Positions 67 through 61,156 of a stretch of 64,000 nt of DNA are shown piece after piece; positions within the stretch are counted from its first letter, which is position 1, and each line of letters opens with the position of its first letter. Under the pieces are notes generated by a model. It was not told where the DNA came from, did not search any database, and was given only the letters and a program-made list of their open reading frames with translations. The stretch spans positions 1,984,001 to 2,048,000 of the forward strand of contig JBHGNT010000016.1 of the NCBI GenBank assembly GCA_043228905.1, in the 5' to 3' direction. This stretch comes from Azolla caroliniana (lineage: Eukaryota; Plantae; Polypodiophyta). The translations under genes were made by a program, and so were the position numbers.

Positions 67-2151
67 TTAACCACAATGCTTTTCCTCTTCTACCATTTTA
101 AGCACAAAGTTTTTAAGTATGTCTTCACTATAAGAACCTTCTTTGTGTGCAATAGAAAATGTAGAAAATGAATCAACATGGATAGTCTTCTTTAAAGCAA
201 AATTTCTCGCTCTTAAGGACTCGATTATATCAGCATCCTCCTCCATACCAGCAGCAGCATAAATACTACCCATAAGAACATATGCAGCCGCAAGATTATT
301 ATCCAAATGTATAGCTTGATCAAAGGCCAGCCTTCCAAGTTTCACCTTTCCCCATTTTCTACAAGCACTCAATAGTGCAACCCAAACGGAAGAGTGATCA
401 GAAGATGACATTGTCTTAATAACAGACATCGCCTTCTCAAAACGCCCTGCACAACCGAAAATAACTACCATGCAAGTGTGATGCTCTAGCTTTGGTGTAA
501 TGTGATACTTCGTATACATACTCTCATAATGTATTTGGGCCTCATCCAATTTCCCCGAGTGGCTACATGCAGTCAACACGCATAAGAACGTTATCTCATT
601 CGGTGAGAGACCATCTCTTTGAATCCTTGTAAAACAATTCAACGCCTCTTCACCTGTGCCTTTGTTGGCATACCCTGCGATGAGTGCATTCCATGAGATT
701 ATATTCCGGAATGGAAGCTCTTCAACTAATTTCTCAGCTTTTGAAAGATACCCACATTTGGCATACATGTCTACTAATGCATTTCCTAGTGCAATGTTTT
801 CCTCTAGCAAGCCTCTACTCACAATCTCATTGTGAAGTTGTTTCCCCTTGTCAATAGCTCCCACGCTACCACATGCATTCAAAATGCATGTGAATGTGAC
901 ATTGTTCGGAGAGACGCCTTCTCTTTGCATTTGTGCATAACAATTCAATGCTTCATGTGCTTGTCCATTTTTGGTATACCCAGAGATTAGTGTGGACCAG
1001 GAGACAACATTCTTAAAACGGAGACCTCTAAGTACTCGTTGAGATTTTTCAAGACAACCACATTTGACATACATATCTACCAAAGCATTTCCAAGCTCAA
1101 TGTTTTTCTCTAACAGACCATTGTTGGCAATCTCGTTGTGAATTTTTTCACCCTCATCAATGGCTCCTATGCTCCCACATGCCTTCAAGATGGAAGTGAA
1201 TGTGATCTCATTTGGTGAGAGGCCCTCTCTCTGCATTTGGGCAAAGCAATCCAATGCTTGGCGACCATGTCCATGTTGGACATACCCAGAAATTAGTGCT
1301 GACCAAGTGACCACATTTCGAATAGGAAGCTCTTCTAGTACTTTTCTTGCCTTTGCAAGCAGGCCACATTTGGCATACATATCAACCAATGCATTGCCGA
1401 GAAAAGCGTTACCATGCAAAAGAAGTCCTCTATCAACAATCTCTTCATGAATTTGTTTTCCTTTATCAATAGCTCCAATGCTAGCAGACGCCCTGAGGAT
1501 ACAAAGGAAAGTGACTTCATTTGCAGAGATGTTCTCCCGACGCATTGATTGGTAACAGTCGAGGGCAGCCTCACAGTGCTCGTGTCTGGCATACCCTGCA
1601 ATGAGGGCATTCCAAGAGACCGTGTTTCGAATCGGAATATCTTCTAGAATGTCACGCGCTTTCTTGAGTAAACCACATTTAGCATACATATCCACCAAAG
1701 CATTACTGACCATGACATTTTTATGCAAAATTCCTCTTTCGACAACATTGTCATGGATTTCTTGACCTTTTTTTATCGCGCCAATGCTTCCACAGGCCTT
1801 GAGAATTGAAGTGAAAGTGACATCATCAGGAACAAGACCATCTTCTCTTTGCATTCTTTCAAAGCAAATGAGAGCTTGATGGCCATGGCCATGTTGAGCA
1901 TATCCAGAAATGAGCGCAGACCAAATGACGACATCTCGGTTTGGAATTTCTTCTAGTATTTGATGCGCTTTTGCAAGCATGCCACATTTAGCATACATAT
2001 CGATCAATTTGCCAGCTATGTAAGGACTCTTTTCAAGCAATCCTTTCCTCATTACATGATCGTGAAGTATGGTGCCCCTATCTAGGTCTTTCTTCTTTGC
2101 ACAAGATTTGAGTAATTCAATTACCATGTAATCTTGGTTGGAATTTCTCAT
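67..2151 (-). CDS. PLS-class pentatricopeptide repeat protein with E domain and no DYW (organellar RNA-editing factor type)
   Basis: Uninterrupted ORF with repeating P-L-S triplets (NALVDMYAKCG / VVTWSALISGY / TFTSILKAC). It ends in an E domain (VWVALLSACRKWG...AYVLMGSIYA). The first in-frame ATG is at 2151; the ORF track starts at a TTG at 2178. A short upstream exon is possible. Confidence 0.93.
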   Translation of the reverse strand: MRNSNQDYMVIELLKSCAKKKDLDRGTILHDHVMRKGLLEKSPYIAGKLIDMYAKCGMLAKAHQILEEIPNRDVVIWSALISGYAQHGHGHQALICFERMQREDGLVPDDVTFTSILKACGSIGAIKKGQEIHDNVVERGILHKNVMVSNALVDMYAKCGLLKKARDILEDIPIRNTVSWNALIAGYARHEHCEAALDCYQSMRRENISANEVTFLCILRASASIGAIDKGKQIHEEIVDRGLLLHGNAFLGNALVDMYAKCGLLAKARKVLEELPIRNVVTWSALISGYVQHGHGRQALDCFAQMQREGLSPNEITFTSILKACGSIGAIDEGEKIHNEIANNGLLEKNIELGNALVDMYVKCGCLEKSQRVLRGLRFKNVVSWSTLISGYTKNGQAHEALNCYAQMQREGVSPNNVTFTCILNACGSVGAIDKGKQLHNEIVSRGLLEENIALGNALVDMYAKCGYLSKAEKLVEELPFRNIISWNALIAGYANKGTGEEALNCFTRIQRDGLSPNEITFLCVLTACSHSGKLDEAQIHYESMYTKYHITPKLEHHTCMVVIFGCAGRFEKAMSVIKTMSSSDHSSVWVALLSACRKWGKVKLGRLAFDQAIHLDNNLAAAYVLMGSIYAAAGMEEDADIIESLRARNFALKKTIHVDSFSTFSIAHKEGSYSEDILKNFVLKMVEEEKHCG

Positions 2152-2454
2152 ACTTTTTCCTTTGCCATTCACGGTCAAATTGTTTTGAGATCTCTGAATT
2201 TATATTGCTTTAGAATTTATTTTTTTCTTTTCTCCTAATATATTGCAATCATTTTCCTGTTCGTAGGGATTTATCTCCAGATTTTGCAGGTACCCGTGAA
2301 TGGTTTGCATCCATACTTCAAACAGAGAAAAGGTGGAAACATTTAAGGTGGGTTTTTCTCGTTTTGGATGATCTGAACCTTAACCAAAGAAAGAAATCTA
2401 AGAATCCTCGGTTTAGCCATCAGATCAGAAACAGAGTTGTTTACATGTGAAGAG

Positions 2455-6509: not shown

Positions 6510-9500
6510 TCATGCCCCAAGAAAGCTTGGGGTATCTCGTTGATGATAAGACTTCCTTGCTTGCTTTGTATAAGACGATGACTTTTTATCCATATATACA
6601 TTCAATTTCTCTTTGTGAATGCTCTTGCTCGGCCTTGAAGCTTTGCGAGACATAAATATTTTATGGTTTACTCTACTCTTTCTCTTGTCAGCCATTCCTG
6701 CTAAAACAAATAACTTTTGGGAAAGTTCGTTGTTCCCCAACCTCTCTTCCACCAATGCAGCCTCCTAAAAATAAGTGAACATCAATGAGTTAAATGATTC
6801 AGTTCAATCACTTTAATTAGAAAAATGAATGTAGCCTTCTGAAAATATTTCAAGGTCAATTTCTAAATTAGTACAAAATTTAATGGAAACTTGATTAACT
6901 GTAGGTGAAAATTTTACCATTAGGGCTGCAGCATTTTCAGGGTCAATACGAAGGGCCTTTCGTAAAAGCCTCTGTGAAGCAACCAAGTTTCCCAATTTCC
7001 TCTCCATTTTTGCATAAGCCTGACAAGACGAATCAGAGATTTTCAACAACAAACAAAATTATAGTTCTTGAATGGACATTATACATTAGCCACAAAAGTA
7101 TGTATTATCTACACAAATATAGTTAAATCTACAAACATTCTGTGACTTACTTGAATGGGAATTAGCCACAGAAATAGGCATTATCTACACCAAAATAGTA
7201 AAAATATAAAAACGTTTTGTGACTTACTTGAATGGACACTATACACGAGTCATCCAACTCAATACATTTTTCGAAAAGTTCCCGTGCTTTGTCATAATTT
7301 CCCGACGCATCCTCCATGACCGCCCAGGCCTACAAAGAGCATTCCATTTTTTATGAGATAATTCCTTATTTTCACTTTCCTTACAGATAAACCATTGTCG
7401 TAGCAGATATTTGGTTTGGCCTCTACATTTAATTGCATGCCTATGTCATCACATTCTCATCAGACTGTGTAGCCAGCTTCTTAGTGATGGCAGATGGTCA
7501 GTTAGAGATGGTGGTTCCACCCATAGTTATTAAAAAACGCGTATTGTACGTTTAGAATACTCTGAAGTATTCTACACGTATTCTATGTTATAGAACTGCC
7601 GTTTTTAAAATTTGACGTATTCTACATATTCTACGAATTTAACAAGTATTTATCATTTCAAAAAAGTTTTAAAATTTTTTAATTTTAATTATTATTTTTT
7701 TGAAAAAAATACTTTAAATTTTAAGAAGCATTTATCGTATTTTACAAGTATTCTACACGTAATCTAAGTATTCTACACGCATTCTAAGTATTTAATGTAT
7801 TTTACATATTTTATCTATAAAACATGAATTCTAAGTATTTAAAAAAAAAAGGTCGAATACTTGTACAATACTTAGCATACGTATTCTACACGTATGTATG
7901 CTAAGTATTCTACAACAATGGTTCCACATATAGACATCCTCAAACGAATATCCCTTATAAACGAAAAAAAGAGATGAGAGTAAACGTTCAGGAATTCTTA
8001 GCTATCAGCTCACGAAGGGTTAACACAAGGATTACCATTGTAAACAAGATGAGATTGAATTCAAGTAAGATCCTAATAGTGTGTGCAGCTGAGGAATGTC
8101 CCCAAAGCTCCCTGTGTGGTTGATTAACATAGGCCATATGGCCTACCAGACCAAGTGATCAGGTGCACTGGACTACAATCAATGTTCTGGAAATTCCAAA
8201 TTGTGTTAACTTTACAAGTAGGATCACGATGATTATGCTAAGCACATGTATCAGCCAGGTGCCTCCAATGTGCATCATTGACAGCCAAAAGAAGAATTTT
8301 TAAAATATTTGTAGAACCTGAGATATGCTCAGAATTTATTAAGGAAGGCTGAATAAAGAACAGAATGCAGGTATGATTTCATGTAAAATATATGGAAGGT
8401 AAGTGCAAAGTCAGCTGATAAGAGTGAACATATCTCCTATATATTTTATTGGATACAAAGAAATATGATAAGCATTGGGATCAGCATATTAAGATGTGAT
8501 GAGCTTTGATCAAGGTAACCTAACTTTACAAGAAAAGCATATCACCTTGCACTATAGCGACAGTATATGCTACCATTTTAGTTTTTTTGTTATGAAACAT
8601 ATGTGTAATAACTAAGGTATAGCCACATAGCACATCTGGCAATACAAGCCCTATGTTTTAACGAACAATCAAAAGCATATTTAATTGCTAGATTTGCTGT
8701 TTTTAAAGATAATGAGAGATCATGAGTGAATCAACTTAAAATACAATGGAAAGCAAAAAATATATGTTTTCCCTTGAGAGCAGGATAAAGTATTTTATTC
8801 TAAAGACAAAATTTGCTTGAGTTTTATGTGCATAGGTAATTTTATTTACAAATGGTTATTTTTCTGGTTACTCTAACTGTTATTTAATAATATTGAATAA
8901 TTTACCTGCCAAGAATGTAGATTTTGAGCATCTGCTTGAATGCAGCGCTGAAACAAAGACCTCGCGATTTCTTTGGATTCAGCTGTACCAATAAGTGCTT
9001 CTTTACATGCCCAAGCCTAAAAAACAACTTAACATTGTAAATTATTATACATCGGATTGACACAAAAGAGCATTAGAAGATGAAGAAAGAATGTTCCCGA
9101 ATAGTAAAAGAAATACAAGGCAGTATACCTGCAAAGAATAAACATTTTTTGGATCAATCTCAAGTGCCTGCCGAAAAAGCTGACGCATTTTCTGTTGTTT
9201 CCCTTGCCTATTCTCAAATAACGCCCATGCCTTCAATACATAAGCTACTGGTTATCAGGTGATAAAATCATCAAATGTGTACAGAAACTATTATATACAT
9301 ATTTTTCTGTGTATACACACACGTGTGTGTTTAATGGGAACTTATATGGTAAGGATATGACATCATTAAAAAGAATCCTTACATGCCAGCATTTTACATC
9401 TTTTGGATTTGCTTTGACAGCAAGCCTAAAATGATGGCGAGCTACACCCCAATTATGTGCCTTGGCTTCAAGAAGAGCACGTGATTGATGTATAACAGCA

Positions 9501-12500
9501 TTTCCAGGCTGAATTTCTGCTGCCCTGGAAAGCAAGTCTCGTGCTTCTTTCCAATTCCCAAGCTGCTCCTCAAGTCGAGCCCAAGCATGCAATCCATATA
9601 CAGCAGCTCCTTGAACCATGTCAGGAGAGGCTTCTTCTGCCTGTATGACTCCCAAATGAAGAATTACAACATATACGATAATTGTGAATCAAACACAATA
9701 GCAATGTCGTATCACTTTGCCAAACCCACAAGGCAGTTTTTTTGTTGTATTCATCACTCACTCACCTTCTTAGCAGCATCAATTGATTCCATAAATAAAA
9801 CACGTGCCCGTTTTGCATTTCTTCCATGTGCCTCGATGGATCCCAAGGCCTGCAAGGCTCGGATATAGTCATAACCCAAGTTTTGCTGCTTTTCAAAGAC
9901 AGCAATTGCTTGCGCATACAGACCTCCAGCTGTCACAAAGTCCCCTGCACAAGAAATAAAGCCACGGATGCATTTATACCATTTGTCATTTGACGGTCAT
10001 ACTCTTTCTAACTGATAGACTGATTATCTCCTACGGAAGAAAAAGGATATGAATTTGCTGCAAAAGTAATACTTTGCAGGTTTTATAATCAACCATCGAC
10101 ACAGAAGGCCCAAGAGACGTTAAACGCAAAGAATCTAAAGTCCCATGGCTACTCTTGACAGCTTTATTTTCCAGTATATGGACAGTATAACCCCATGGCA
10201 TATTTCCACAATCTTGAAAGAGTATAAAGACAAGTCATAGCTTTACTACCATATCTTTTTCAAGACATGTTACCTAACCAGACTGTGATAGGTGGTACAC
10301 GATGGTCAGACAGCCAAGGCATATTTTCACAATTTGGACAGAGATATAAAGACAACATTCCAACCAGATCTTCCTCAAGACATGTTACCTAGCCAGACTA
10401 CTGTAGATAGAGGTGGTACATGATGGCCTGACAGTGATCTCTAGACACCAATGATTAAATGTTATAAGAATTTGGGCGTAGATAGCTGGTAAAGAAGCTG
10501 TTTACTAAACCTTCTATATTTGGTTAAAACATAATAGTAAAGTAAAACAGCATATAATTATCAATAAGGAAGGCAAGTCTAGATTAAAAATATTTGGTAA
10601 AGGGTAGAAGCTTTGAAGAGTTCAAAATAAAGCAATATGGTAGACAATTATCCTTGCTAATTCTGGAACGGAAACAGAAACCAAATAAACTAGCCCTAGC
10701 CTTAGTTGCAATGAAATAAAAGAATGACAGCTATAGAAATAAGCTTTACCACGTTGTCTTTCAACATAGGCATACTCAACAAGGACATCAGAATCATGTG
10801 GATACTGATCATAAAGCTGCAAGAAAGAGCATAAGAGGTTATTTCAATTATATTCGTGGTATCGAAACCATCTTAAATTTCTCGGAATGTACCTGTTTGG
10901 CAAGCACTTTTGCAGCGACGATGTCTTTTTTGGAAATCATACGACGTAACATTTTCAAGCCCATCTTTAATTCATTCATGGTTCTAACACATGGCTCGTC
11001 AGATATGCTTTTACCATCATTATTTGGCCTTGACAAACTTATGGGCTTCTTAATAATTAGGGTGGATGAGGTGCTTCTAGCTTTATTAGCAACATCTGCT
11101 GCATCTTCATTCCACAAGTATTCTGACTTGGGAGACGGCAGGGGGATCATTTGTGCTTCATTCATAGATGGTTTTCTGTTTAACAAGGAAGGTTCATCAG
11201 ATGTCTGTGATTGCTCTTTATATGATATATTTTGCGGAAGTATCACGTCTGCACTCTGTACGTTCTTATTGAAAGTTGAGGATATGCCCATAGGTTTTTC
11301 AGCATCAAGTAAAAAATTAGTGGAACTGATGATTTCATTGACACTACATTGAATTGCCACTTCTTCCGAATTATCTTTACTCTTAGGATTTGCATCTCCT
11401 AGTGTCCAGCCCAACTTATTTCTGAATTCCTTATCAAAACCTTGTAAGACCCTTACCTGAAAAATGCAAAGTACATACATCATGTTAGAAACAAGCAAAC
11501 ACAACCATTTCCAAGATTTCTACGTCATTTGAATATGACTTCCAAAGTATCGTCCAGATGGCAACAGATACTACTACTAAACCATTTCTAATATATATGT
11601 TAGATCTTTAAGCTAAAATGTGTCTAATTTATATTTGTACGTCATAATGCTGGAATATATCAAACTCATGTGTTAGATCTCAATAAGTAACAACTAACCT
11701 GCTTTTTGAACTCTGCAAATTCTTCAGCACTAACTGATCCGTCCCTATTTGTGTCAACAAGTTGCATGAGTTCATGAGCTTCACGCTTATCAGCTCCTAG
11801 TTCACCCAGGACTTGCTGGAATTCGGTCATGCTTATTTCTCCGTCATTATTCTTATCAAACATCATGAATACTTGATCTTCTGCAGCCTGAGACTTCACC
11901 AGTGAAACCTCGCCAGTGAGTTCCTTGAGAGATAATGCTGCACGATCCGCAGCAGCCATCATCAATTTTTTCAGTTGTTGAACCTGAAATTTGTGACATA
12001 TGTTGATTTTGATTCACAACTCTTGTAAGGATTAAGCATATAAATATATAAAAAGTTAGAGAATGTTTAGACCTGTTCAGGATCTGTGAGGCCTCCTTTA
12101 TATAGAGAATGTGATGCATCACCATCATTAGCAATAAAATCCATGGTTGAAGTGCGAATTTGCAGTTCCATCGTGGGTTGTTTAAGGTCTGAAGTGCCAA
12201 GGTGGACAGCCACATGAAGACTCTTATACCCATTTGGTTTTGGCTTAGAAATGTAGTCCTTCAGCCTCCCAGGGATCTCTTTCCAAATGGACATCACAAT
12301 CTCAAGCACCCTGTAGCATGCCTCCTCCCCTCTCTTCATAGCTTCATACTCATCCAAATTTGTTTGAGGTTTAACTACAATCCTCAACCCCATGATATCA
12401 TATATCTCTTCTGGCTTCCGACCATCCTTCAATAATTTTTTCATTGTGCTAAACCTACTTTTTAGTCGAGCAGATAGTGTAAAATCCTCAATCAAAGTTT

Positions 12501-14548
12501 TCAGTTTCACGTCATTCTTGAGGGCAGTAGATAGTTTTTTCTTGCACTCTTCCAGAGCAGTGCTTCCATGAGGCCAATAACTTGAAAGCCAATTATCTAA
12601 TGACTCGTATGACTCTGGAAATATCACATTAAAAGCCAGATCTTCAAGCTCTGTAGAAACCTCTTTATTACCAGTTGCATGAGCAAGTGGAGCATGCACC
12701 TGCAACGCTTCCAGAGCCAATATTTGTTGGCGATACCTTGGAAGCTCATGTACATGTCTCATAAGATGTAGACGAGCTGAAAATTCTGTGATGATTGACC
12801 GGATATCATGGTATGAAAGACAAAATTGCCTAACTGCCCTTGCACTTTCTTCATCAAATAAATCCATTTGATCAAGTGTGCGTTGAAACCTCATGCAATC
12901 ATAAAGAACCCTACTGATGTCAGCACCAAGATCTTGACTGATGTCAGAAATGCTCACTAACCCTGCTTCAACTACAAAGCGGAGGAGACCCGCTGCAATT
13001 ACTGTACCATCCATCTGTATTTTCAAGGATTGTGTGAGAGATAGCGCACATATGGTAACAATTCCTCAAAAAACAAATATTTAACCATGTTTATACGTTG
13101 TTATAGGTTCACCGTTTAGCACATAAGATACTATTCATATCCTCTGTATCAAATGTTTAGGGACATGAAAGAACCTTTGCATTCAAAGAGTATATATCCT
13201 AAGTGTAATCAAATCAAAGAGTTCAAAATCATAACCCTAACCAAATCAAACCATTTGCAAGTTGCAATACAGAAGAAGGCATTTAGGGGCTCCCACAACA
13301 AAGCAATACATGAAAGAACCTTTGAATCTAAAGATAAAACCATGAGCCTATCTAAATTAAAACTTTTGACACATAGCAATAAATAAGACACCATTTAGGG
13401 ACTTCGTTGGCATAGTTACTCACACCAAGTTATGAAAGAATCTTGGACATTAAAGAGTCAATCGTAAGCCTAACCAAATCAAATGTATTTACAAGCTGCA
13501 ATGCATAAGAAGGCCATAGGGGTTATTTTAACATAATGAGGGTTTATATTTTAATTACCTGTAGCTCAGCGAGTGTGTATGCTATTGATAAGGAGCACAC
13601 AAGAATTGATCGGCCATTGTTGGGAGATCTTCGTATCGCTGATAATGTTAGCTTTAATGCTGACATTAATTGTTGCATAGCCTTCCCAGATTTTATAGAA
13701 GGAGATAACCTTCCTGATAAACCATCCCAAGCTGTTGTAAGGTCAGCAACTAACTGACCGCCCTCTGGAAGTGTAGATATTCTCACCGGCCACGGCTCCT
13801 GATACGGAACTAGCTTTTCAGTTCCAACAGAGGTTGCCTCTTGACTGCCAACAAGATCGATTACTTCAGAAATACTTCCATCCATTTGATTCTCCCTTCT
13901 AATAAATTCTTCACATGCTCTGCCATTTGATTCAGCTAGGTTAGAAGCATCACCTTCAGATCTATACTGAACTTCTTTGCTTGTCATGGCCTCTACATTC
14001 AAACTGTTATTTTCAGTCCAAGATTGTAAATCATCCAGCCTCATTATAGCATCTTTGTGCTTCTTTCTCTTCTTTGATCCAAATTTACCTTTTTTTCTCA
14101 AAAGACCGATCTCTTCTTCTAAATCGAGATCTTTCCCTACCACTTCAATTCTGCGAGGGCCACTTGAACCACCGTCGTCAATGGTAAAAACAGGTTCATC
14201 AGAATGCCTATCAAGAACCAATGCACTCGGATCTTCTACACTCTGAGCTTCTACAACACGCCCATTATTTAAGAGTACATTTCCATTACTAGAGCTCAAA
14301 ATTCGTTCTAGCTTTTCGAATTGTTTAGATCTCCTTCTTCTTCTCAAAGAAGAAACATGTCTTGAAGGATTACATTGGGCTGTGGATCCTAACATCGGGG
14401 AGCGTTTTCCCATCACTTTTTCTAAATATAAAGGAAGACGAGCGAAGCCTGAAAGACTTTTCTCATGTCTTTCAGAGCAACGACCAATGCTCATCAAGAA
14501 TGCAGAAAACTGAGGTGTACAGATACCATTTGCAAGAGATAAAGGCAT
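6510..14548 (-). CDS. CRSH: Ca2+-activated RelA/SpoT homologue (CRSH/RSH4 type): degenerate HD domain, ppGpp synthetase and 2 EF-hands, with a C-terminal HAT/TPR repeat array; 12 exons, about 1318 aa
   Basis: Exons are 14548-13559, 13014-12073, 11983-11699, 11456-10893, 10816-10750, 9944-9766, 9640-9383, 9230-9129, 9016-8906, 7329-7228, 7019-6918 and 6764-6510. All introns are GT-AG and phase-compatible. Synthetase motifs: RLKSRFSTMKKL, YDIMGLRIVV, RLKDYISKPKPNGYKSLH, ELQIRT. EF loops: DKNNDGEISMTE and DTNRDGSVSAEE. HAT-type repeats: AWARLEEQLGNWKEARDLL, AWALFENRQG, AWAVMEDASGNYDKARELF. Confidence 0.9.
7522..7920. mobile_element. Non-autonomous hAT-type MITE (family A) in a CRSH intron
   Basis: Ends are CATAGTT...ACAACAATG. 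The 8-bp flanks are GTTCCACC / GTTCCACA (7/8 match). There are many internal GTATTCTAC motifs, and a second copy lies at 49474-49861. Confidence 0.82.
10259..10435. repeat. Diverged direct repeat of about 55-60 bp in a CRSH intron
   Basis: TCAAGACATGTTACCTA.CCAGACT...GGTGGTACA.GATGG...GACAG occurs at about 10260 and about 10376. Confidence 0.7.
13157..13522. repeat. Three degenerate tandem units of about 120-150 bp in CRSH intron 1
   Basis: ATGAAAGAA(C/T)C...CCTA.C.AAAT.AAA...TAGGG recurs at about 13166, 13310 and 13432. Confidence 0.65.
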
Positions 14549-15237
14549 GATCAAATAAGAAAACAAAAGCAAAGAAGCGAGAGGAGTTTAGTTTCTTTGA
14601 CACTGATTTACGTCCAGGAACTGACCTGAATTCTCTTCCGTGATGAGCTGATTTCTCTTCTATAACGTGTATGGAAGGATTTCTCTCCTGTCACACGAAG
14701 TGTATGGAATAATGGATGGATTTTCTCTCTAGTATGAATGTGAAACTTTCTTCGTTGAGCACCTGGTTTCTCTATTTTCAGGTGAGCTGTGTATAACAGA
14801 AGGATTAGTCCTCCGTGAGATTGTGAATGTCTAGACTTCTATCCAGTTCTGCTGCAAAGAAGCTTCGTTGGCACAATCGTATTCTCTGATGACCTGGTTT
14901 CTCTTGTCACATTCTGTGGATGGATGGATTTCTCTCCCGTGCGAATGCAAATCTTCTCAAGGACGCTCCTTTGGATATGATCAAGTGAACACTAACCCTA
15001 TTCCTCCCTTCAAACACTGTACATGGACGGACGTCTATCCTTACGCACTGATGCAAAGATTCTTAGGAAAGCTTCTTGGACATAGACTCTCGCTGAGGGG
15101 GGGATTTCTTCTTCTGTCACACGGGGCGGCGGTGTTTAATGAAGGAATTTCTTTCACAGGAGCGTTCTTGGATCACAATGCCACAAATGAAAGGGATTAT
15201 TTCTACAAAGGTTCTCGAACAATCCTTCTACTTCCTT

Positions 15238-15332
15238 CTCCTCTTCCTCTTCCTCTTCTTCTTCTTCTTCTTCTTCTTCTTCTTCTTCTTCTTCTTCTTC
15301 TTCTTCTTCTTCTTCTTCGTCTTCTTCTTCTT
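15238..15332. repeat. (CTT)n microsatellite in the putative CRSH 5' leader
   Basis: Long, nearly pure CTT run. It produces the spurious poly-L/F/R ORFs in the track. Confidence 0.95.
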
Positions 15333-15664
15333 CGGTAACTTTGGTTAGGAATCAGGTGCTCTGCTTGTGCACCTCTCAGGGAAGGGGATGGATTCACCAA
15401 TACTGCTGTGTTGAGAATCTTCTTGAGAATGTTCTAGAAGAAGCTTCCCGCTTCGATTCTAGAAAATTCTAGAAGAAGCAGGCGATGGCGATGGCGATGG
15501 CGATGGCGATGGATAAGTGGGTCGAGAATGGTGCAGAGAAATTTCTCAGAGAGACATTCTGAGGAAGAGGAAGAGGAAGAAAGAGAAAGTGAGTGAGTGA
15601 GTTGTGTTTAATTACATTAGTAGCCACACAAAATCCGAAAACTCGTGGCTCCAGAAAATGCCCG

Positions 15665-17113: not shown

Positions 17114-19129
17114 TTACAGGTTGATAGGAATTTGTGAGGGAGTTCTCAATGGGGCCGAGTAAATCATTACATTGCCATCATCACCCGTGCAAACAATATA
17201 CTCCTTATCTTTAATCACTGCCATATTTATGCATCGAATTGCTCCTCCATTTTCAGATGCTCCTAACCCATACAAACACTTACCACTTGTAATATCATGG
17301 ACAAGAAGAGATCCATCACCACTACCACTCCACGCAAAGGGCCCTACAATTTGAAAACACTATCAATAAAATCTCTCTTCATTATCTAGGCAATTAAAGA
17401 ACCTTGAGGTAGGTAATCTTATGAACAACATGACTAATGCTAAAGATACTATTCACTTTTTCCCATATTAAATGTAGAATATGAAAAAAACTATGTAAGA
17501 ATGAGATACCTGAGGCAAAGAGGCTATATATAAAATCTCGATGTCCGGTTAGAGTATGAACAACTTGAAAAGAAGACCTAGGATCGAGGACTTTCATCAA
17601 TTTGTCTGCACCACCTGTGACAATCAATGGGTAGCTAGAGGAAGAGTTTTGAGATACACTGATGCAAGACAAGGCGCCTTGGGCTTTGGTTGAGCTGGAA
17701 ATAGAAAAAAGGAACGAGTTTGAATAAAGATTAAACCAAAGCCTTGAGAAACATCAAATTGTTGTTTATTGTCTTAATTATGCCAATATGTAAATACGGC
17801 AAATGTAAGGTCCAAGTAGTTTTTTCAACTGCAAATTGATTCTAATTACAAGATTTACATCCATTTCATAAGCATCGCCGAGAAGTTCTAATCAAATATT
17901 AACCAATGGAGTCAAATTGAGTTATTGAGAGAAGAACATGATAATGGTCACACCCATATAAAGTCTCCAAATGCCCAACTTCTCCGATAACTTCACAATA
18001 GTTTCATAACAATCACTCATCATTTACTTAAGCAAACTTTGGGCCTATGTATGCTAAAGAAAAACTTGCAACAATGATATAATTACCTATGTAGGAGTCG
18101 AGAATGTACTGGCGAGTTGGTTCTACAATCCCACACCTTCAAGACACCGTCTTGTCCACCACTAAGGTAGAGCTCTTGGGCACCACCAACACCACTCTTC
18201 AACACTTCGAGCGAAGTTACGTGACCACGATGGGCAGACTTATGATGCACAAGAAGCGACGCCGAGGAATGGCCAATGTCCCACACAATGACTCCACCGT
18301 CTCGCCCACCACTAACCACACACGTTTTGCCACTATCGGCCCCGCCCACAGCGAGCATCATAACTGCCCCTACATGGCCCCGCATCGTCGCCACGTGCTT
18401 CCCGTCATCCCGTCCCACGTCCCACAACATCAACGACTTGTCGTAGCTCGAACTCACGGCCATCGATTTCATAGCACTACCATTCATGCCATTATCCGTA
18501 AATGCTTTCACACCCGAGATGGATGCGGTGTGGCTACCGCCCTTGAGCTCACGGCACCGAGGAGGGGGCGTGGAGGTGGAGGAGTCCCAGAGGAAGAGCT
18601 TGGAGTCCATGCCCCCGCTGAGGAGGCGGCCGTCCGGAAGGTGTGAAACCGAGGTTACCCACTCGGAGTGGCCGCCTCCGCCGCTTCTAATAATGCTGTT
18701 GCTGTTGTTTCTTCTAGTGTAGTAGAGTAGGTGGCGGAGAGTGGCGGAGGGGATGTGGACGGTGTAGATGGCGTGGTCGGAGGATCCAACGGCAGCCATG
18801 TCGCCCATGACGCTCATGCACAGGCTCGGCCTGTCGGAGAGGCTGACCACCGCTCCGGCCTGCGCCGGGGGGCCCTCCCTCCACACGTGGGAGGCCTGTG
18901 ATGGCACGTGAGAGCTCGGAATCCGCGGCTCTGGAACCATCTTACATCTGGATTTAAGCCCATCACACAGACTTAATGCTTCTTCTTCTTCTTCTTCTTC
19001 TTCTTCTTCTTGAGGTTTTCCTGGAGCAGAGAACGTGCAGGGCATTTTCGCCCTCGCCATCACCGTGGTGCGTCCACGTGCAGTGTTCTGCCTGCTTCCG
19101 CTTCCGCTTCCGCCTCCCCTTCTCATCAT
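17114..19129 (-). CDS. WD40-repeat beta-propeller protein, 3 exons
   Basis: Exons 19129-18087, 17694-17510 and 17343-17114 are GT-AG and frame-preserving. Repeats include GHSEWVTSV...SGGMDSKLFLWD, SSSYDKSLMLWD, SGGRDGGVIVWD, SGGQDGVLKVWD, TGGADKLMKVLD, SGSGDGSLLVHD and TGDDGNVMIY. The start codon choice is uncertain. Confidence 0.88.
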
Positions 19130-19404
19130 GCCTTTGCTTCCTCCTTTTTCTTTTCTTGGCCACAATCTCTCTTTGTCTTGTCTGCCCACTTTACTGCGCC
19201 GGTAGAAAGGCTGGTGGTTTCCTCCGGTTTAATGTTTCGTGTTCACACCTTTGTGCGTTCTTCATTACTCCGACCGGCTCTTCGTTTCTGGATCCCAATG
19301 CTCCCAACGGAAGAAGAGCGTGATCGGGCTAGTTGGTTCTACACCGAAGCAATAGTAGTCAGCAACAACTGTTTTTTCTAATTCTGAAACTTCAAAATTC
19401 AAAG

Positions 19405-22333: not shown

Positions 22334-22580
22334 TGCTCACAACAGTTAATATCGGATGGAAGGCTGGGATAGGAACTCTTCTTCTGCACTCTGATTTGTG
22401 TGTGCCGGGGAAGCCAGGATGCAAATGGAAGGCCCTTCTTCTTCTTCTTCTTCTTCTCAGGTATCTAAATCGAAGATCCTCCCTACCTTTCCCTGATGGA
22501 GCATCGGAAAGCCTCAGATTTCTACCCATTCTGCCGCAGCTTTTTGTGGGCATGGCTCTTTTCCCCCGCACATCTACTTA

Positions 22581-24761
22581 ATGCAGACACTAAGAAACAG
22601 AGCACATCTCTGCTCTGCATGTATGAACCGCCTTGAGCGTAATGGATTTTCGACACAGGTAGTACCGCCTTCTGCTTCTCTAACGGAAGCGTCCATCAAA
22701 GATCTGTGCGAAATGGGGCAGGTTGACAGAGCTCTAGATGCCCTATTGCCACTCTCTGAACCATCAGACCACATTTATATGGCATTGCTCAAGGCTTGCA
22801 ACAAAATAAAATCTCTTCTCCGTGTTCAATATGTGCACTACCACATCACAAAGCACATGATATCAAGTCCCAATGGATCTCTGGGTAACTATTTGGTCAT
22901 AACACTAGCAAAATGTGGCGCTTTTGACGACGCGTATGATGTGTTCAAGGGTTTGTCTAAGCACAATGCTGTCACATGGACGCGTATTCTATCTTCTTAT
23001 ATAGATATTGGTCGTGTCTGTGATGCCATTGGTATATATGAATGTATGAGAGAAGAAGGTATAATGCCAGATGCTGCTACTTTTGTTCGCTTGCTTAAAG
23101 CTTGTGGCAGTCTCTCTAATTTAGAAGCAGGAAAAAAGCTTCATTTAGATGCTGAACATATGAACTTTATCTCTAATGTCTATGTAAATACCACATTGAT
23201 AAGCATGTATGGTAAATGCAAATCAATGACATTGGCGGAAAATGTGTTTAGTGGCCTAATTGAGCGTAATATTGTGACATGGAATGCCATGCTCACAGTA
23301 TATGTTGAACAAGAGCAAGCTGAGAGAGCTTTACAACTATATCGACAATTGCATGAAGAAGGTATCATTCCTAATGAAAGGACTATAATGACTTCCATTC
23401 AAGCATGTGGAATCCTTGGAGAGAAATTAGAGAAAGGTGTTAACCATGGGTACATATCGACTAAATCTATATCTTTACACATCGGTCGAGCATTGCATTC
23501 TGAAGCCTGGAAGAAAGGTTTTGTTTCACATGTGTTTGTTTCTAATACACTGCTGAGTATGTATGGTAAATGTGGATCGGTTAATGAAGCAGAATTTGTA
23601 TTTAACTCATTGTCAGATTGTGATGTTGTGTCATGGAACGCTATGCTGTCCACGTTCATCGACAATGGGGAAGCAAGAAAGGCCTTACAGATTTATAAGA
23701 AGTTGTGGGAAGAGAATGTGTCACCAAACACATTAACTCTCACAATGGCATTGCAAGCATGTGGTATTCTAGCAGAGAAGAAAGAAAACTTTGGTTTGGA
23801 TGGAATATCAAGCAAGATGGTATCGTGGAAAATTGGCAAGGGGTTACATCATGATATCCGAGAGAATGGACAGGATGTAGACGTATTTGTAGGAAGCGCA
23901 CTAGTGAATATGTATGGGAAGTGTGGGACTATTGCTGAAGCTGAGAATGTATTCATTGGATTGAACCATATAGACATTGTATCATTAAATGCCATGCTGT
24001 CAGCCTATGTCGACCAAGGTGAAGGAGAAAGGGCTTTAGCGCTTTTCACAGATATGCAAAAAGAACAGTTAGGTATGGATATGACCACTATTCTCTGCCT
24101 TCTGCAAGTGTGTAGACAAACTGGCATCATGGATACTTGTTGGGAACTTTATTTTACGTTCATCTCCAGTGGGCACACTATGAGTGCGTTACTAGCAACC
24201 ACACTTATTCATGTATTTGGTAGCTTTGCGAGCATCGAAGATGCACAAGCAATTTTCGACCTGGTATGCTATCCAAATGTGGCTATATGGACAGCAAATA
24301 TTACAGGATATGCTAGAGAAGGTAGTTTTATTTCATGCCTGCAGTTGTTTGAAGAGATGCAATTTTGTGGGATTATGCCTAATGATGTAACATATCTCTT
24401 ACTACTCTATGTTTGTAACCATGCTGGAATAGTAGATAAAGCATCTGCCTACTTTAAATGCATCAATATAGATGTTGGTACTCTACCAAACTTGAGGCAT
24501 TATGCTTGTATGATGGATATTCTTGGACGAGCCGGAGATTTTTGTAAAGTGATGAACATGTTGAAGAGTATGCCACTTGAGGGTGACTTGTCTTTCTGGA
24601 TGGGTTTGCTTGGTGCATGTCGTATACATGGAAATGCTGACCTCGGAAAACATGCATTTGATCTTGCAGTGCAACTTCATCCCAAAGAAGCCAGTGCATA
24701 TATCATGATGTCAAATATCTATGGTGATGCTTATAATCAACACCACGATGATTTGGTTTGA
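22581..24761 (+). CDS. PLS-class PPR protein with E domain and no DYW
   Basis: 726-aa ORF with PLS motifs (TTLISMYGKC, VSWNAMLS, TFVRLLKAC) and an E domain (FWMGLLGACRIHG...AYIMMSNIY). The Arg/Ser-rich N-terminus is compatible with an organellar transit peptide. Confidence 0.93.
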   Translation: MQTLRNRAHLCSACMNRLERNGFSTQVVPPSASLTEASIKDLCEMGQVDRALDALLPLSEPSDHIYMALLKACNKIKSLLRVQYVHYHITKHMISSPNGSLGNYLVITLAKCGAFDDAYDVFKGLSKHNAVTWTRILSSYIDIGRVCDAIGIYECMREEGIMPDAATFVRLLKACGSLSNLEAGKKLHLDAEHMNFISNVYVNTTLISMYGKCKSMTLAENVFSGLIERNIVTWNAMLTVYVEQEQAERALQLYRQLHEEGIIPNERTIMTSIQACGILGEKLEKGVNHGYISTKSISLHIGRALHSEAWKKGFVSHVFVSNTLLSMYGKCGSVNEAEFVFNSLSDCDVVSWNAMLSTFIDNGEARKALQIYKKLWEENVSPNTLTLTMALQACGILAEKKENFGLDGISSKMVSWKIGKGLHHDIRENGQDVDVFVGSALVNMYGKCGTIAEAENVFIGLNHIDIVSLNAMLSAYVDQGEGERALALFTDMQKEQLGMDMTTILCLLQVCRQTGIMDTCWELYFTFISSGHTMSALLATTLIHVFGSFASIEDAQAIFDLVCYPNVAIWTANITGYAREGSFISCLQLFEEMQFCGIMPNDVTYLLLLYVCNHAGIVDKASAYFKCINIDVGTLPNLRHYACMMDILGRAGDFCKVMNMLKSMPLEGDLSFWMGLLGACRIHGNADLGKHAFDLAVQLHPKEASAYIMMSNIYGDAYNQHHDDLV

Positions 24762-29138: not shown

Positions 29139-32100
29139 TTAATGTGGTAGTTGCGGCTGGGGGATTAAGAAGGATGCAATGGCTGCGGCAAGAGCTTCAG
29201 TGGCGGTATTAGTGTCGAGATTAGCAATCATGCTTATTGCATCATGGTAATTAGCAACACTATGATTAGGATTACTTTCATCATTAGCAGCATTACTTTG
29301 ATTACTGCGGCTGCTGTTGCTGTCTTGAATATAATTGTATGCATGATTACTGCTATTTAGTGGCTGGGTGGAATTATTAATCACATCAGCGGCAGCACTT
29401 AATTTGGATGTGGCCCTGATTGCAGCGGCTACCGCATCATCAACAAACTGCAGGCGTTCATATTGACGATCAACAGTATCGTTATCGTAATAATCCACAT
29501 CGATTAACTGTTGGGAGCTGTTGATCTCTATAACATGGTTGGGCAGAGGCGCAGTGGGTACATGGGGATGGAGGATCGGGTCGTCGGTTCGATCCATGGC
29601 TATGGTGTTCTGGTTTGGATGAAGACTTATGGAAGGTGAGGAATTAGGGTTTTGGCCTTTGGTGAGGTCAAGGGTGATCTCAGTTTGCATCACAGGCAGA
29701 AAAGAAGCAGATGAAGATGAAGAAGACGAAGCAGACGCAGAAGAAGAAGTGGTATAATGATAGTGAACCCTAGAAGCAGAAGAAGAAGAAGCAGCAGCAG
29801 AAGAAGAAGTAGTAGATGGCGAGAAGGCCATGTCTGCTGCCGCCGAGGTCATGAACGCCATGACCGACGCTGCAGGAGACAGCGCGTGGTTGTGCGTCCC
29901 TTCATATGTGGTTATCAGAACGCTCCGATCCTCTACACACCTCTGTACCTATATATATATATACCACATTTCGCCATCGCCATCGCCGCCATCATTATGC
30001 AGACAAAAAAAAGACATTAAAATCCACAGAAATACTCCAAATACAACCCCCCATTCTTCCATCATTTCAGTGAAGTACCAGCTTATTTCATGATCCAAGT
30101 ACGACATCTAGTACGATATCGTACGTCCACACTAGCCTTATGATCTGTAGAGTGCTGTATTTGTACTATAATCTGTACTCTGATTTTGTACTGAAATTAG
30201 AAGTCAGAGAGTTTCTGTAGTATGTTTAGATCTGACATCGCCATCGCCATTGTCGTGAATCGTGATCATCTCAGCTGCAACTTCATGTGGATTGCATGAT
30301 CCAAATTTACAAGATCGCCTAATCTCTCAGCCACGAAACTATAATCAATGAATCTAATGATAATTAACGCACTACATATGGGCAAGATTCAAGCACCCGA
30401 TTCCCGTATTACCATTAATCAAGTAGTGATTGACGATAGATTAGTTTTAATTGCGAATGTAATTGATTACCTGTTTGCGCACTGGGCATGAAGGCACCAT
30501 GGTGCATTTGTAGTAACTTCGCGGGCACGGGTTTGATTTCGCTGTTTTCTGTCCGTATTTCCTCCATTGACAGCCATCGCTCATCTGTAATGTATTATGT
30601 GATCAAGTTAACAATCATCAAACGATACGAAGGAGTGGTTTTGTTCTTACAGAATAAGGACGAAGGAAATAAGGGATGAACTGGCTATGGTAATTAGTAT
30701 TAATCATACTAATTAACCTATGGTACCATGGGGGCTGAGGTTCTGGCTCGAACCGATACACGCGCTTTCCTAAACACTGGTGGTTGGACGGCTAATGATG
30801 CTTCCTTAATCGTCCACTGCTCACTAATTACATTCTTCTTCTGACTAATCTCATCCTCCTGAATCGCCGTACTGTCTGTTGCCGAATCAAAGGTATTGTC
30901 GGTGGCATGATTAATGATGGGATGGGTACAACTATTGTTAATTGTCACGTTACTCGCATTCATCTCTCGTGTTAATCCCGTTTGTTGATCTATCTTTAGC
31001 TTCTTCGTTACATGCTTATTATAATCACTGTTATTATGATCCCTACTTTTCTGATGATCGACATCACTGTTAGGAATAGATCCTGTCCTAATTACATTTC
31101 CCTGAGTTGGCCCACGATCATGATCTGGTGGTTCTATAGTCTTCGTTATCAGCGTGGGATTCCTTGTCTGAAATTGATTCTGATCATCATGCGGATGATT
31201 AATCATCCTCGAACTAATTTCCTGCTTAACCATGAAATTATCAATTCCAAAAACATGGCCCCAATTGCAACCATGAATAATTAATTATCGAAACAAATTA
31301 TGGGTAGAGTGGAATCGGGGTACTTGATTCGATCCATGAGGAGGTTTAATGATAAGCTGATGCTTGATTAGGGTATCAAAATGTCTGTGCATTAGGTCTG
31401 AATAATTCGAAGTTATTTCCGAGACCTTCCTCCTTAATTCCTCGTTTTCATCCCTCATCTCAGCAATATCTCTCTGAAGCTTCGACAGCTGCTGCAATAA
31501 CTCATTGTTAGTCTATATATATCTTTCACTAACAATTGCATTGGAGCTAATATCCTGTGATTTGTAATTAATGACAATTCTAACGAGCATTAAAGTAACT
31601 AGAAGGCACCTGTCAATTATAGCATAAGATTAAGGTTAATTATCTGAGGATTAACCATTTAAACCTAAATCTGTCCTAAATTTTGTAATAATGAGCAGCA
31701 AAGAGTGAGAACCGTAGAGGTGACGAAATGTCTGAATACTGTGATTACTGCTAATAATGAGTAATTAAGGTTATGATCACTCATAGCTTACACTTGATCT
31801 CGCCATTAACTGACGCTGCTGCTCGAGAGGAGAATTCTTATAATCAGCGGCACTACTCCACAGAGAGAGATCGGTGGACGTATAATCAATACCGAGGTTA
31901 TTTTCCGTACCATTATCCAGCATAACAAATTGATCTGCAGTGTGGTTAAGCAAGAGGCCGTCGCTATTGACAGCTCTGACAGCATCATTAGAGGCCGCTA
32001 ATCGTGATGAATCGTCGTTGTTAGAGAGATAATCGCGGGTGAGTTGGGAGGCGATGGAGATACTGGCAGCATCATCCGTTCTAATCACGCCATTAATCTC

Positions 32101-32244
32101 CTCCTTAATGCTGGAATAATCTTTGATCTGATCATGATGTGTTGTGATGAATGGAGGAGCAATACTAGCATCACTGGCATCATCGTGGCATGGATTACTG
32201 TAATGGGTTTCGATATTGCTCTGATCAGTATGACTAACTCCCAT
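29139..32244 (-). CDS. WRKY transcription factor, group IIb-like (N-terminal coiled coil, single WRKY domain, C-X5-C zinc finger), 5 exons
   Basis: Exons are about 32244-31792, 31491-31324, 31221-30727, 30584-30471 and 29948-29139. The protein reads [47 protein letters not shown]|[27 protein letters not shown] and ALAAAIAS. The intron at KQ|VQ is typical of groups IIa/IIb. The N-terminal exon limits are less certain. Confidence 0.9.
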
Positions 32245-32404
32245 GAGGGATTATTATATAGAATGAAAGTTTGGCCTGGTAAAGCTGATGTGATTAGCAG
32301 CAGATGCAGTCAGGGAGCAGATGAAGAAGGTATTGATTAGGGTCTATATGTAGGATGGGAAGGGCGATTAATGGGTAATTAAAATTGAATTAGAGATTAA
32401 GGCA

Positions 32405-59511: not shown

Positions 59512-61069
59512 TTAGTATCCACCACCTTTGTTACCTCCCTCAGAACCCCCATGCCCATAACCACCACTATGGCCAGACCCACCACCACCATAACCGCTTC
59601 CGCCACTACCATACCCGGAGCCACCCTCGCCATACCCACTCCCGCCACTCCCGTAGCCCGAGCCACCCTCGCCATACCCACTTCCACCACTTCCGTATCC
59701 ACTTCCCCCGCTACCGAACCCACTTCCTCCGCTTCCATACCCACTTCCACCGCTCCCGTACCCCGATCCCCCCTCACCGAACCCACTTCCACCGTTACCG
59801 TAGCCACCGCTAGCACCACCATATCCAGAGCCTCCCTCACCATGTCCGCTACCTCCGTTTCCATACCCGCTTCCCTTGTTACCACCACCACCATAGCCAG
59901 CACCACCCTCACCGTGCCCGCTGCCACCATTACCGTAACCACCAGAACCTGTGCCGCCACCGTAGCCAGCACCACCCTCTCCATGTCCGCTGCCACCATT
60001 ACCGTACCCACCAGAACCTGTGCTGCCACCGTAGCCAGCGCCACCCTCTCCATACCCCTTACCACCACCACCATATCCTCCGGCACCTGAGCCGCCACCA
60101 TAGCCAGCACCACCTTCCCCGTTGCCATTTCCACCACCACTGTAACCACCACTGCTACCATGGCCACTGCCCCCACCACCATACCCACCGGCACTCCCAC
60201 CGTAACCTGACCCATACCCATACCCATACCCACTACCTCCTCCTCCACCACCACCACCACCACCACCACCACCTCCACCACCATAGCTTACACCCTTGTT
60301 GTCATTCTCGCCATAACCATAGCCACCTCCGTAGGCATTGCCACCTTCGCCGTAGCCACCACCACTTGGATATCCGCCATATCCAGAACCTCCATTACCA
60401 CTGCCATAGCCAGAACCACCTCCATGGCCACTTCCACCATGGCCAGAGCCACCTTGGCCATAACCACTACCCCCCTCACCATGACCAGAGCCACCTTGGC
60501 CATAACCACTTCCACCCTCACCATGGCCAGAGCCACCTTGGCCATAACCACTTCCACCCTCACCATGGCCAGAGCCACCTTGGCCATAGCCACTTCCTCC
60601 TTCACCATGGCCAGAGCCACCTTGACCATAGCCAGAGCCACCTTGGCCATAGCCACTTCCTCCTTCACCATGGCCAGAGCCACCTTGACCATAGCCAGAG
60701 CCACCTTGGCCATAGCCAGAGCCACCTTGGCCATAGCCAGAGCCACCTTGGCCATAGCCAGAGCCACCTTGGCCATAGCCAGAGCCGCCTTCACCATAGC
60801 CAGAGCCACCTTCACCATAGCCTGAGTAGGATTGGGTGTGAGCAACAAGGTTGGCGCTGGTAGGGGTAGCATCATGGGGGTTGGGGACATTGGCAGTGTG
60901 AGGGGTCAGTTGTTGGGTCTTGGAGACATGTTGGTCAGCGTGTTCGTCGGATGGAGAGGATTCATCGGTGGATGAGGATGAGGTATCGGGAGGGGGACGA
61001 GCTGCATGGACATTGTTGTGAGTAAAGAGAGGGAGTAGGAGGAGGAAGACAAGGAGGAGAAGGTGGCCA

Positions 61070-61100
<31 letters not shown>

Positions 61101-61110
61101 AAGAAGCCAT
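59512..61110 (-). CDS. Secreted glycine-rich repeat protein (cell-wall GRP type)
   Basis: The ATG is at 61110. A hydrophobic signal peptide (LLLLVFLLLLPLF...VHA|ARP) and an acidic/His spacer are followed by dozens of GG(S/A)G(Y/H)G(Q/E/N/S/G) heptads encoded by 21-bp repeats. The protein ends GGGY-stop. Confidence 0.92.
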
Positions 61111-61148
61111 GTTGGTTATGTGGTTATTGGGTGAAGCCAAGGTGCTTG

Positions 61149-61156
61149 TTTATATA
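61149..61156 (-). promoter_or_regulatory. TATA box of the glycine-rich protein gene
   Basis: TATATAAA on the minus strand, about 40 bp upstream of the ATG at 61110. Confidence 0.55.

What the first reader, a model, noticed from the sequence alone, without database searches (positions are those of the whole stretch)
6510..14548. ppGpp synthetase with Ca2+-sensing EF-hands fused to a C-terminal HAT/TPR repeat array
Seen in the sequence: there is no stop after the second EF-hand. The exon ends KKQ|GT at 11699 and splices in phase 0 to VRVLQGFDKEFRNKL (11456). The frame continues through a roughly 170-aa low-complexity linker and eight further phase-compatible exons encoding about 8-9 repeats of the form AW(A)xxE...G...ARxLF. 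Established: Arabidopsis-type CRSH ends shortly after the EF-hands, and plastid HAT proteins of the HCF107/Mbb1 class bind and stabilise specific RNAs. Inference: one polypeptide could tie Ca2+-triggered ppGpp synthesis to an RNA or protein partner in the plastid gene-expression machinery. The HAT array might act as a second regulatory input in place of the TGS/ACT domains of long RSHs. TPR-bearing RSHs may already be annotated in some seed-free plants or algae; I cannot check this here.
Basis: partly seen in the sequence, partly recalled or inferred. Interest (0 to 1): 0.85.

Follow-up and report, generated by a model that had tools for sequence, protein, structure and literature searches.

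The report
Ancestral alarmone synthetase with HAT tail
This fern gene is spliced into one message for a likely calcium-activated chloroplast alarm-signal (ppGpp) enzyme joined to a helical-repeat tail that likely binds RNA; the same layout occurs in green algae, mosses and liverworts, was likely lost in seed plants, and has been noted in print for a few species but apparently never tested.

Summary
Twelve GT-AG exons on the minus strand (14548-6510) give one open 1318-aa frame: dead hydrolase, RelA/SpoT synthetase, two EF-hands, a variable linker and about ten HAT hairpins. RNA contigs show all 11 splice joints; the EF-hand/linker joint is in 6 of 8 runs laid (5 studies).

It is not unique to this genome. 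The same architecture occurs in bracken, liverworts, mosses, Closterium, Chlorokybus, Mesostigma and several chlorophytes, so it is likely the ancestral green-plant RSH4/CRSH, and the seed-plant CRSH a shortened form. The repeat array is colinear with HCF107 (29% identity), forms its own clade, and survives as a separate gene in lycophytes, Pteridaceae, Sphagnum and Closterium.

TPR-bearing RSH4 is already in print: Ito 2017 as cited by Avilan 2019, and four rows of Avilan's Table S2, including Marchantia. I found no functional study and no mention of the fern member, the HCF107 kinship, the ancestral status or the repeated splits.

Best mechanism, inferred: the HAT array binds a plastid RNA and tethers a Ca2+-activated ppGpp synthetase to it. 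Whether it regulates catalysis is untested.

The parts
13559..14548 (-). Exon 1 (aa 1-330): start codon, basic Ser/Thr-rich N-terminus (predicted plastid transit peptide), long poorly conserved extension, first helices of the degenerate hydrolase region
   Evidence: first 90 aa hold 16 K/R, 5 D/E, 17 S/T; targeting is inferred, no predictor was run
14087..14158 (-). Short conserved motif (aa 131-154) inside the N-terminal extension, shared by fern, liverwort and moss fused proteins and by the Sphagnum HAT-only gene
12073..13014 (-). Exon 2 (aa 331-644): HD-like domain without the HD pair, then RelA/SpoT synthetase domain with intact motifs
   Evidence: Pfam HD_4 E 5e-14, RelA_SpoT E 1e-30; motif columns
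11699..11983 (-). Exon 3 (aa 645-739): two EF-hands with canonical 12-residue loops (about 11857-11822 and 11755-11720)
   Evidence: Pfam EF-hand families
11457..11698 (-). Intron 3 (242 nt, GT-AG, phase 0) with the in-frame stop at 11666; spliced out
   Evidence: joint seen in 6 of 8 runs laid
10893..11456 (-). Exon 4 (aa 740-927): helix after EF-hand 2, about 150-aa variable linker, start of the first repeat
   Evidence: (linker matches 0 of 120 homologues)
10750..10816 (-). Exon 5 (HAT array)
9766..9944 (-). Exon 6 (HAT array)
9383..9640 (-). Exon 7 (HAT array)
9129..9230 (-). Exon 8: 102 nt, one 34-aa repeat
8906..9016 (-). Exon 9: 111 nt, one 37-aa repeat
7228..7329 (-). Exon 10: 102 nt, one 34-aa repeat
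6918..7019 (-). Exon 11: 102 nt, one 34-aa repeat
6510..6764 (-). Exon 12 (aa 1235-1318): last repeat, basic capping helix conserved in land-plant homologues (about 6689-6642), variable tail, stop
   Evidence: aa 1255-1318 hold 17 K/R and 4 D/E
14549..15222 (-). Transcribed 5' leader of at least 670 nt
   Evidence: X3 contig 14178-15222; first in-frame ATG at 14548 after an in-frame stop near 14588

Best explanation
The gene is spliced into one open frame for an RSH4/CRSH protein (degenerate hydrolase, synthetase, two EF-hands) joined by a variable linker to about ten HCF107-like HAT repeats; the protein is predicted to enter the chloroplast and make ppGpp when Ca2+ binds, and its HAT array likely binds a plastid RNA and so would tether the enzyme to the gene-expression machinery. 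Shown here: the splicing, the domain order, intact synthetase and EF-hand motifs, loss of the HD pair, purifying selection on the array, its colinearity with HCF107, and its spread across green plants. Taken from the characterised seed-plant CRSH proteins: plastid location, Ca2+-dependent synthesis, no hydrolysis. Inferred: RNA binding, tethering, ancestral status of the fusion, and loss of the array in seed plants.
For: Splicing. Catalytic and EF-hand motifs match seed-plant CRSH column by column and no aligned RSH4 has the HD pair. Array under selection: among the differences that read laying printed, 13 synonymous to 1 non-synonymous in the array against 6 to 17 in the linker, Fisher p 1e-4 (the tool printed 40 of 404 and 40 of 66 rows, so this is a subset). 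The array is 49-53% identical to liverwort and moss homologues (one Physcomitrium model lacking a repeat 46%). Nearest named non-RSH relatives are HCF107/Mbb1 proteins at 27-31%; profile alignment to Mercurialis HCF107 is end to end, 339 columns, E 4e-42, one repeat shorter. Best natural sequence matches in the PDB are the HAT proteins Clf1/Cwf4/Crooked neck and Prp6. Net charge of the array is zero or positive in 38 of 39 aligned proteins, and +12 in the window, like HCF107. HCF107 binds 11 nt of the psbH leader with 11 repeats (PMC5897788, passages), and the three characterised Chlamydomonas HAT proteins bind chloroplast 5' UTRs (PMC8635915, passages). The fusion has lasted from chlorophytes to ferns: 30 of the top 150 representatives at 50% identity carry RSH plus HAT, 29 of them with EF-hands.
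Against: No RNA binding, enzyme activity or location was measured. The fold search cannot tell HAT from protein-binding TPR: the top hits are SPY/OGT, consensus TPR, Tom71 and APC/C subunits. The array survives without the enzyme in lycophytes, Pteridaceae, Sphagnum and Closterium, and the enzyme persists without it in seed plants, so neither half needs the tether. The net charge is modest and near zero in some fern HAT-only proteins. The basic capping motif is not conserved in chlorophytes and is missing from the Sphagnum fused model. The tree of the enzyme half could not be built, so loss in seed plants rests on distribution only. The closest RNA run (X1, 99%+ alike) does not bridge the EF/linker joint; most bridging runs are relatives 90-99% alike.
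Confidence: 0.5

Rival explanations
1. Passenger fusion: the HAT array is an Mbb1/HCF107-type mRNA stabiliser with its own target that only shares a promoter and transit peptide with the enzyme; the two halves do not influence each other.
For: HAT-only genes arose repeatedly from the fused gene and stay conserved: Adiantum GOP47_0012591, Ceratopteris KP509_30G071200, Sphagnum fallax BDL97_08G117600, Diphasiastrum O6H91_09G090900, Selaginella XP_024522416, Closterium. The linker is long and unconserved. Seed-plant CRSH is Ca2+-activated without the array (PMC6881373, PMC10107265, passages).
Against: A neutral fusion would not be expected to persist in chlorophytes, streptophyte algae, bryophytes and ferns in the same order; this is an inference. 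Keeping both halves after a split also fits an interaction in trans.
Confidence: 0.25
2. The array is a protein-binding TPR-like groove that docks the enzyme on a protein partner (ribosome, RNA polymerase, chaperone) or folds back on the enzyme's own EF-hand region or N-terminal motif as an autoregulatory clamp.
For: The fold is a generic TPR superhelix. The short N-terminal motif occurs only in proteins that also carry the array or in fragments of their clusters, and in no HAT-less RSH4, among 401 proteins held. HAT proteins such as Clf1 and Prp6 also act as protein scaffolds (own knowledge).
Against: The closest named relatives are RNA-binding HCF107/Mbb1 proteins, colinear repeat by repeat. 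The N-terminal motif is absent from algal fused proteins and from the lycophyte and Pteridaceae HAT-only proteins.
Confidence: 0.22
3. Two neighbouring genes, a short CRSH ending at the intronic stop at 11666 and a separate HAT gene, joined only on paper or by rare read-through.
For: Intron 3 does hold an in-frame stop. Split forms exist in other ferns and in lycophytes. Short isoforms are annotated in Sphagnum and Mesostigma. Contigs drop rare variants, so a minor short isoform is not excluded.
Against: The joint is in 6 of 8 runs from 5 studies and single contigs span enzyme and array. Full-length fused proteins are recorded from transcript assemblies and genomes of many species.
Confidence: 0.03

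Closest known systems
RSH4/CRSH (Arabidopsis At3g17470 CRSH, rice OsCRSH1)
   Same: Degenerate HD domain, synthetase motifs, two C-terminal EF-hands, no TGS/ACT; exon 2 is 46-50% identical to seed-plant CRSH.
   Different: Adds about 150 aa of linker and a ten-repeat HAT array after the EF-hands, and has about 250 aa before the catalytic region with a conserved motif, whereas the 2022 review says RSH4 lacks an N-terminal extension beyond the transit peptide (PMC10107265).
TPR-bearing RSH4 of Chlorella variabilis, Ostreococcus tauri, Klebsormidium nitens and Marchantia polymorpha (Avilan 2019 Table S2; Ito 2017 as cited there)
   Same: Same family and same C-terminal repeat domain; the Marchantia polymorpha protein P0005 is 52% identical over the enzyme and 53% over the array.
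   Different: Described there as domain acquisitions in some species, labelled only TPR, with no function. The two Physcomitrella RSH4 rows carry no TPR label although the moss proteins have the array. No fern appears among the 60 of 65 RSH4 rows I saw.
HCF107 / Mbb1 (plastid HAT RNA-stabilising proteins; also Nac2, Mac1)
   Same: Colinear 34-aa Trp/Tyr-rich repeats, 27-31% identity, similar positive charge.
   Different: HCF107 has 11 repeats and no other domain (PMC5897788). This array is one repeat shorter, is fused to an enzyme and falls in a separate clade, so it is a paralogue, not HCF107 itself; its target is unknown.
Bacterial RelA/Rel long RSH
   Same: Same synthetase fold, with a C-terminal region that may sense RNA (RelA reads uncharged tRNA on the ribosome; PMC10107265 figure legend).
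   Different: No TGS, AH, RIS or ACT domains; the C-terminal region is unrelated in sequence and fold, and Ca2+ is the known trigger of the family.

Membership tests
RSH4/CRSH | RelA/SpoT synthetase domain with catalytic motifs | tested here: met
   Pfam RelA_SpoT E 1e-30; motifs intact and matching seed-plant CRSH
RSH4/CRSH | Degenerate hydrolase domain without the HD pair | tested here: met
   HD_4 match but no HD pair in the window model or in any aligned RSH4
RSH4/CRSH | Two EF-hands after the synthetase, no TGS/ACT | tested here: met
   no TGS or ACT family in the Pfam scans of the exons or of full-length homologues
RSH4/CRSH | Placement in the RSH4 clade | tested here: inconclusive
   All 120 listed best hits carry EF-hands and many are named CRSH; the tree of the enzyme half was not obtained
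RSH4/CRSH | Ca2+-dependent ppGpp synthesis | not testable with these tools
   needs an assay
RSH4/CRSH | Plastid location | tested here: inconclusive
   N-terminal composition fits a transit peptide; no predictor or experiment
HAT repeat proteins | Tandem 33-34 aa helical hairpins with conserved aromatic residues | tested here: met
   10 hairpins at pLDDT above 90 in the Selaginella homologue; conserved Trp, Glu, Arg and Phe pattern; HAT_PRP39_N and _C pass their cut-offs in P0002 and P0005
HCF107/Mbb1 orthologues | Grouping with HCF107/Mbb1 and a stand-alone 11-repeat architecture | tested here: not met
   separate clade of 25 rows, SH-aLRT 100, in a quick tree of 38 rows; one repeat fewer; fused to an enzyme
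HCF107/Mbb1 orthologues | Sequence-specific binding of a plastid 5' UTR | not testable with these tools
   needs RIP/CLIP or binding assays

The most novel reading that the evidence does not exclude
The ancestral green-plant CRSH is an RNA-gated, Ca2+-gated ppGpp synthetase: an HCF107-derived HAT array reads a specific chloroplast RNA and licenses or localises alarmone synthesis, a plastid reinvention of RelA's ribosome sensing. Lycophytes and Pteridaceae ferns turned it into a two-gene system, and seed plants, including the Arabidopsis and rice models on which CRSH biochemistry rests, kept only the enzyme half.
Probability: 0.25. Interest if true: 0.82.

Novelty: new member of a known kind. 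Interest (0 to 1): 0.52.

Why it matters
How chloroplast RSH enzymes are switched on is an open question, and the characterised CRSH proteins come from seed plants. If the fused form is ancestral, those models lack a conserved domain related to sequence-specific plastid RNA-binding proteins. Marchantia and Physcomitrium carry the full form and are easy to edit, so a link between plastid RNA metabolism and ppGpp synthesis can be tested directly. The natural split genes in Selaginella, Diphasiastrum, Adiantum and Ceratopteris give ready-made controls.

Tried and rejected
Complex prediction of the Pteridium enzyme half (aa 236-748) with its HAT array (aa 914-1290): no answer, score 0.00 in two runs, alignment not used by the tool; this is no evidence either way. 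AlphaFold of the 1146-aa Sphagnum isoform: each domain confident, pTM 0.47, and the output gives nothing on domain packing. Foldseek against the PDB returned generic TPR solenoids. The careful HAT tree did not finish, so only the quick tree is used, with long-branch warnings among the outgroup rows. The tree of the enzyme half was lost with the script machine. No whole genome is held for this window, so paralogues in this species were not checked. No contig covered the middle of intron 3 in the 4 runs, but contigs drop rare forms, so this does not exclude a minor short isoform. Ito et al. 2017 is not held; it may say more on this architecture than the citing sentence does. Earlier-findings searches by words and by sequence returned nothing. 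Rejected: the array being HCF107 itself (separate clade), a two-gene artefact (spliced joints), a fern-specific fusion (found across green plants), a low-complexity linker (entropy normal).
Full report
Observation. The minus strand between 14548 and 6510 holds twelve exons with GT-AG introns that join into one 1318-aa frame with a single terminal stop. Exon 2 matches HD_4 and RelA_SpoT, exon 3 the EF-hand families, and exons 6, 7, 8, 10 and 11 TPR-type families. Exons 8, 10 and 11 are each 102 nt, one 34-aa repeat, with phase-0 introns.

Is it one transcript? Fifteen runs were listed and eight were laid. One search shows 11 of 11 predicted joints. The joint from the EF-hand exon to the linker exon, which removes the intronic stop at 11666, is in X2 and X3 and in X4, X8, X10 and X13: 6 of 8 runs, 5 studies. 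X1 has no contig across it and X5 is probably DNA. One 3112-nt contig (X3) runs from 14137 to 8905. One 3909-nt contig (X4) runs from exon 1 through exon 5 and has about 1500 more bases beyond, starting with exon 6 sequence. Limits: these are assembled contigs, not single molecules; only X13 is on record as RNA, though spliced joints identify the others as cDNA; most runs are relatives 90-99% alike; a minor short isoform is not excluded.

What the enzyme half is. All 120 listed hits to exon 2 (of 242) carry RelA_SpoT, HD_4 and EF-hand families, and many are named CRSH. The nearest are fern proteins (bracken 73%, Adiantum 68%; P0002 is Pteridium aquilinum), so the window is most likely from a fern. 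The synthetase motifs match seed-plant CRSH, the HD pair is absent, and both EF-hand loops are canonical. In print, CRSH is plastid-located, Ca2+-activated and has no hydrolase activity (PMC6881373, PMC5633626, PMC10107265; passages), and drives the ppGpp rise at the onset of night in Arabidopsis (PMC10107265). I carry these properties over by homology.

What the tail is. The array is 66-71% identical to other fern fused proteins and 49-53% to most liverwort and moss ones, while the linker matches 0 of 120. Among the differences printed by read laying, the array has 13 synonymous to 1 non-synonymous and the linker 6 to 17 (Fisher p 1e-4); these are a subset, 40 of 404 and 40 of 66 rows. The Selaginella homologue folds into ten helical hairpins ending in a long basic helix, with 370 residues at pLDDT 90 or more. 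The nearest named relatives outside RSH4 are HCF107 and Mbb1 at 27-31%, and the profile aligns with HCF107 end to end, one repeat shorter (E 4e-42). In the PDB the best natural sequence hits are HAT proteins of the spliceosome, but by fold it is a generic TPR superhelix. A quick tree of 38 arrays puts the 25 RSH4-linked arrays in one clade apart from the 13 HCF107/Mbb1-like rows (SH-aLRT 100; the careful search did not finish). So it is an HCF107-family paralogue, not HCF107.

Distribution. 13 of the 120 proteins match the array (ferns, Marchantia, Riccia, Calypogeia, Sphagnum, Physcomitrium, Ceratodon, one unnamed); none is from a seed plant. In the exhaustive search at 50% clustering, 30 of the top 150 carry enzyme plus array, 29 also EF-hands. 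Of 17 such clusters looked up, 8 had species names: Chlorokybus, Mesostigma, Closterium, Cymbomonas, Myrmecia, Bathycoccus, Ostreococcus, Picocystis. Two searches with the array alone returned no seed-plant member other than HCF107-like proteins (27 and 30 hits; only the best 8000 candidates were scored each time). The simplest reading is a fusion in the ancestor of green plants and loss in seed plants. This is inferred from distribution; the enzyme tree was lost.

Repeated splitting. Diphasiastrum has enzyme plus EF-hands under a chromosome 5 locus tag and the array alone under a chromosome 9 tag; Selaginella has them on different contigs. In Pteridaceae, Adiantum has an enzyme-only gene with an added N-terminal Rieske domain and an array-only gene on a different contig. 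The array-only proteins share that added leader in decayed form (E 2e-31 for P0148 and 2e-11 for P0149 against P0003), which points to duplication followed by complementary deletion. Sphagnum and Closterium keep a fused copy plus array-only copies, nested with their own fused forms in the tree. The array therefore has a selected function that does not need the covalent link.

Mechanism. Best supported (0.5): a plastid enzyme that makes ppGpp on Ca2+ binding and is tethered by its HAT array to a plastid RNA. HCF107 binds 11 nt with 11 repeats (PMC5897788), and Mbb1, Nac2 and Mac1 protect 5' UTRs (PMC8635915). The array is net positive in most members and ends in a basic helix conserved in land plants. 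Rivals: an independent RNA stabiliser riding on the same gene (0.25), a protein-binding or self-clamping groove (0.22), and a two-gene artefact (0.03).

What is in print. Avilan et al. 2019 (PMC6881373; passages and Table S2 rows, 60 of 65 RSH4 rows and all 4 TPR rows) state that Ito et al. 2017 reported TPR domains at the C-terminus of RSH4 in some green algae, and list TPR for Chlorella variabilis, Ostreococcus tauri, Klebsormidium nitens and Marchantia polymorpha. Ito 2017 itself is not held. The 2022 review mentions only frequent domain acquisition among algal RSH4; Atkinson 2011, Boniecka 2017 and the moss preprint have no TPR mention (passages). Nine library searches found no functional study and no statement on ferns, HCF107 kinship, ancestral status or splitting. 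Most subscription papers and bioRxiv supplements are outside the library, so these could be in print elsewhere.

Verdict. Real, expressed and conserved. The architecture is a known but uncharacterised kind, so it is filed as a new member. The added value is the HCF107 link, the likely ancestral status, and the natural split pairs that make the function testable. Interest 0.52.

Noticed in passing
P0003, P0196 (Adiantum capillus-veneris GOP47_0025025, GOP47_0024328); P0148, P0149, P0150: Pteridaceae RSH4 has gained an N-terminal Rieske [2Fe-2S] domain (Pfam E 2e-15 for P0003), a possible redox input on a ppGpp synthetase; the array-only paralogues keep a decayed copy. I saw no mention of it in the papers read.
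   Followed up: partly
window 14087-14158 (-): A 24-residue motif in the otherwise unconserved N-terminal extension is kept in fern, liverwort and moss fused proteins and in the Sphagnum array-only gene, and in no array-less RSH4 among 401 proteins held; AlphaFold gives it a weak hairpin and helix.
   Followed up: partly
window 14549-15640 (-): Long 5' leader with five very short upstream ORFs of 1-6 codons, a (GAA)n run at about 15225-15339, and an 88-nt skip at 14674-14763 with non-canonical ends in one run.
   Followed up: no
window 7520-7930: AT-rich repeated element inside intron 9; depth up to 285 in the probable DNA run X5 with many loose ends, likely a small transposable element.
   Followed up: no
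P0243 cluster: The Picocystis fused protein clusters at 90% with an entry labelled Diacronema lutheri, a haptophyte; contamination or transfer, not checked. P0243 has degenerate EF-hands.
   Followed up: no
window 67-2199 (-), 22497-24761 (+), 17394-19228 (-), 46088-46519 (+), 53832-54536 (+): Neighbouring genes: two PPR proteins, a WD40 protein, a NatA auxiliary subunit exon and a GrpE exon; nothing links them to the finding.
   Followed up: partly
window 29139-32250 (-) and 59512-61149 (-): Exons that look like a WRKY transcription factor (recalled motif; no Pfam hit on the two pieces scanned) and a 545-aa glycine-rich repeat ORF.
   Followed up: no
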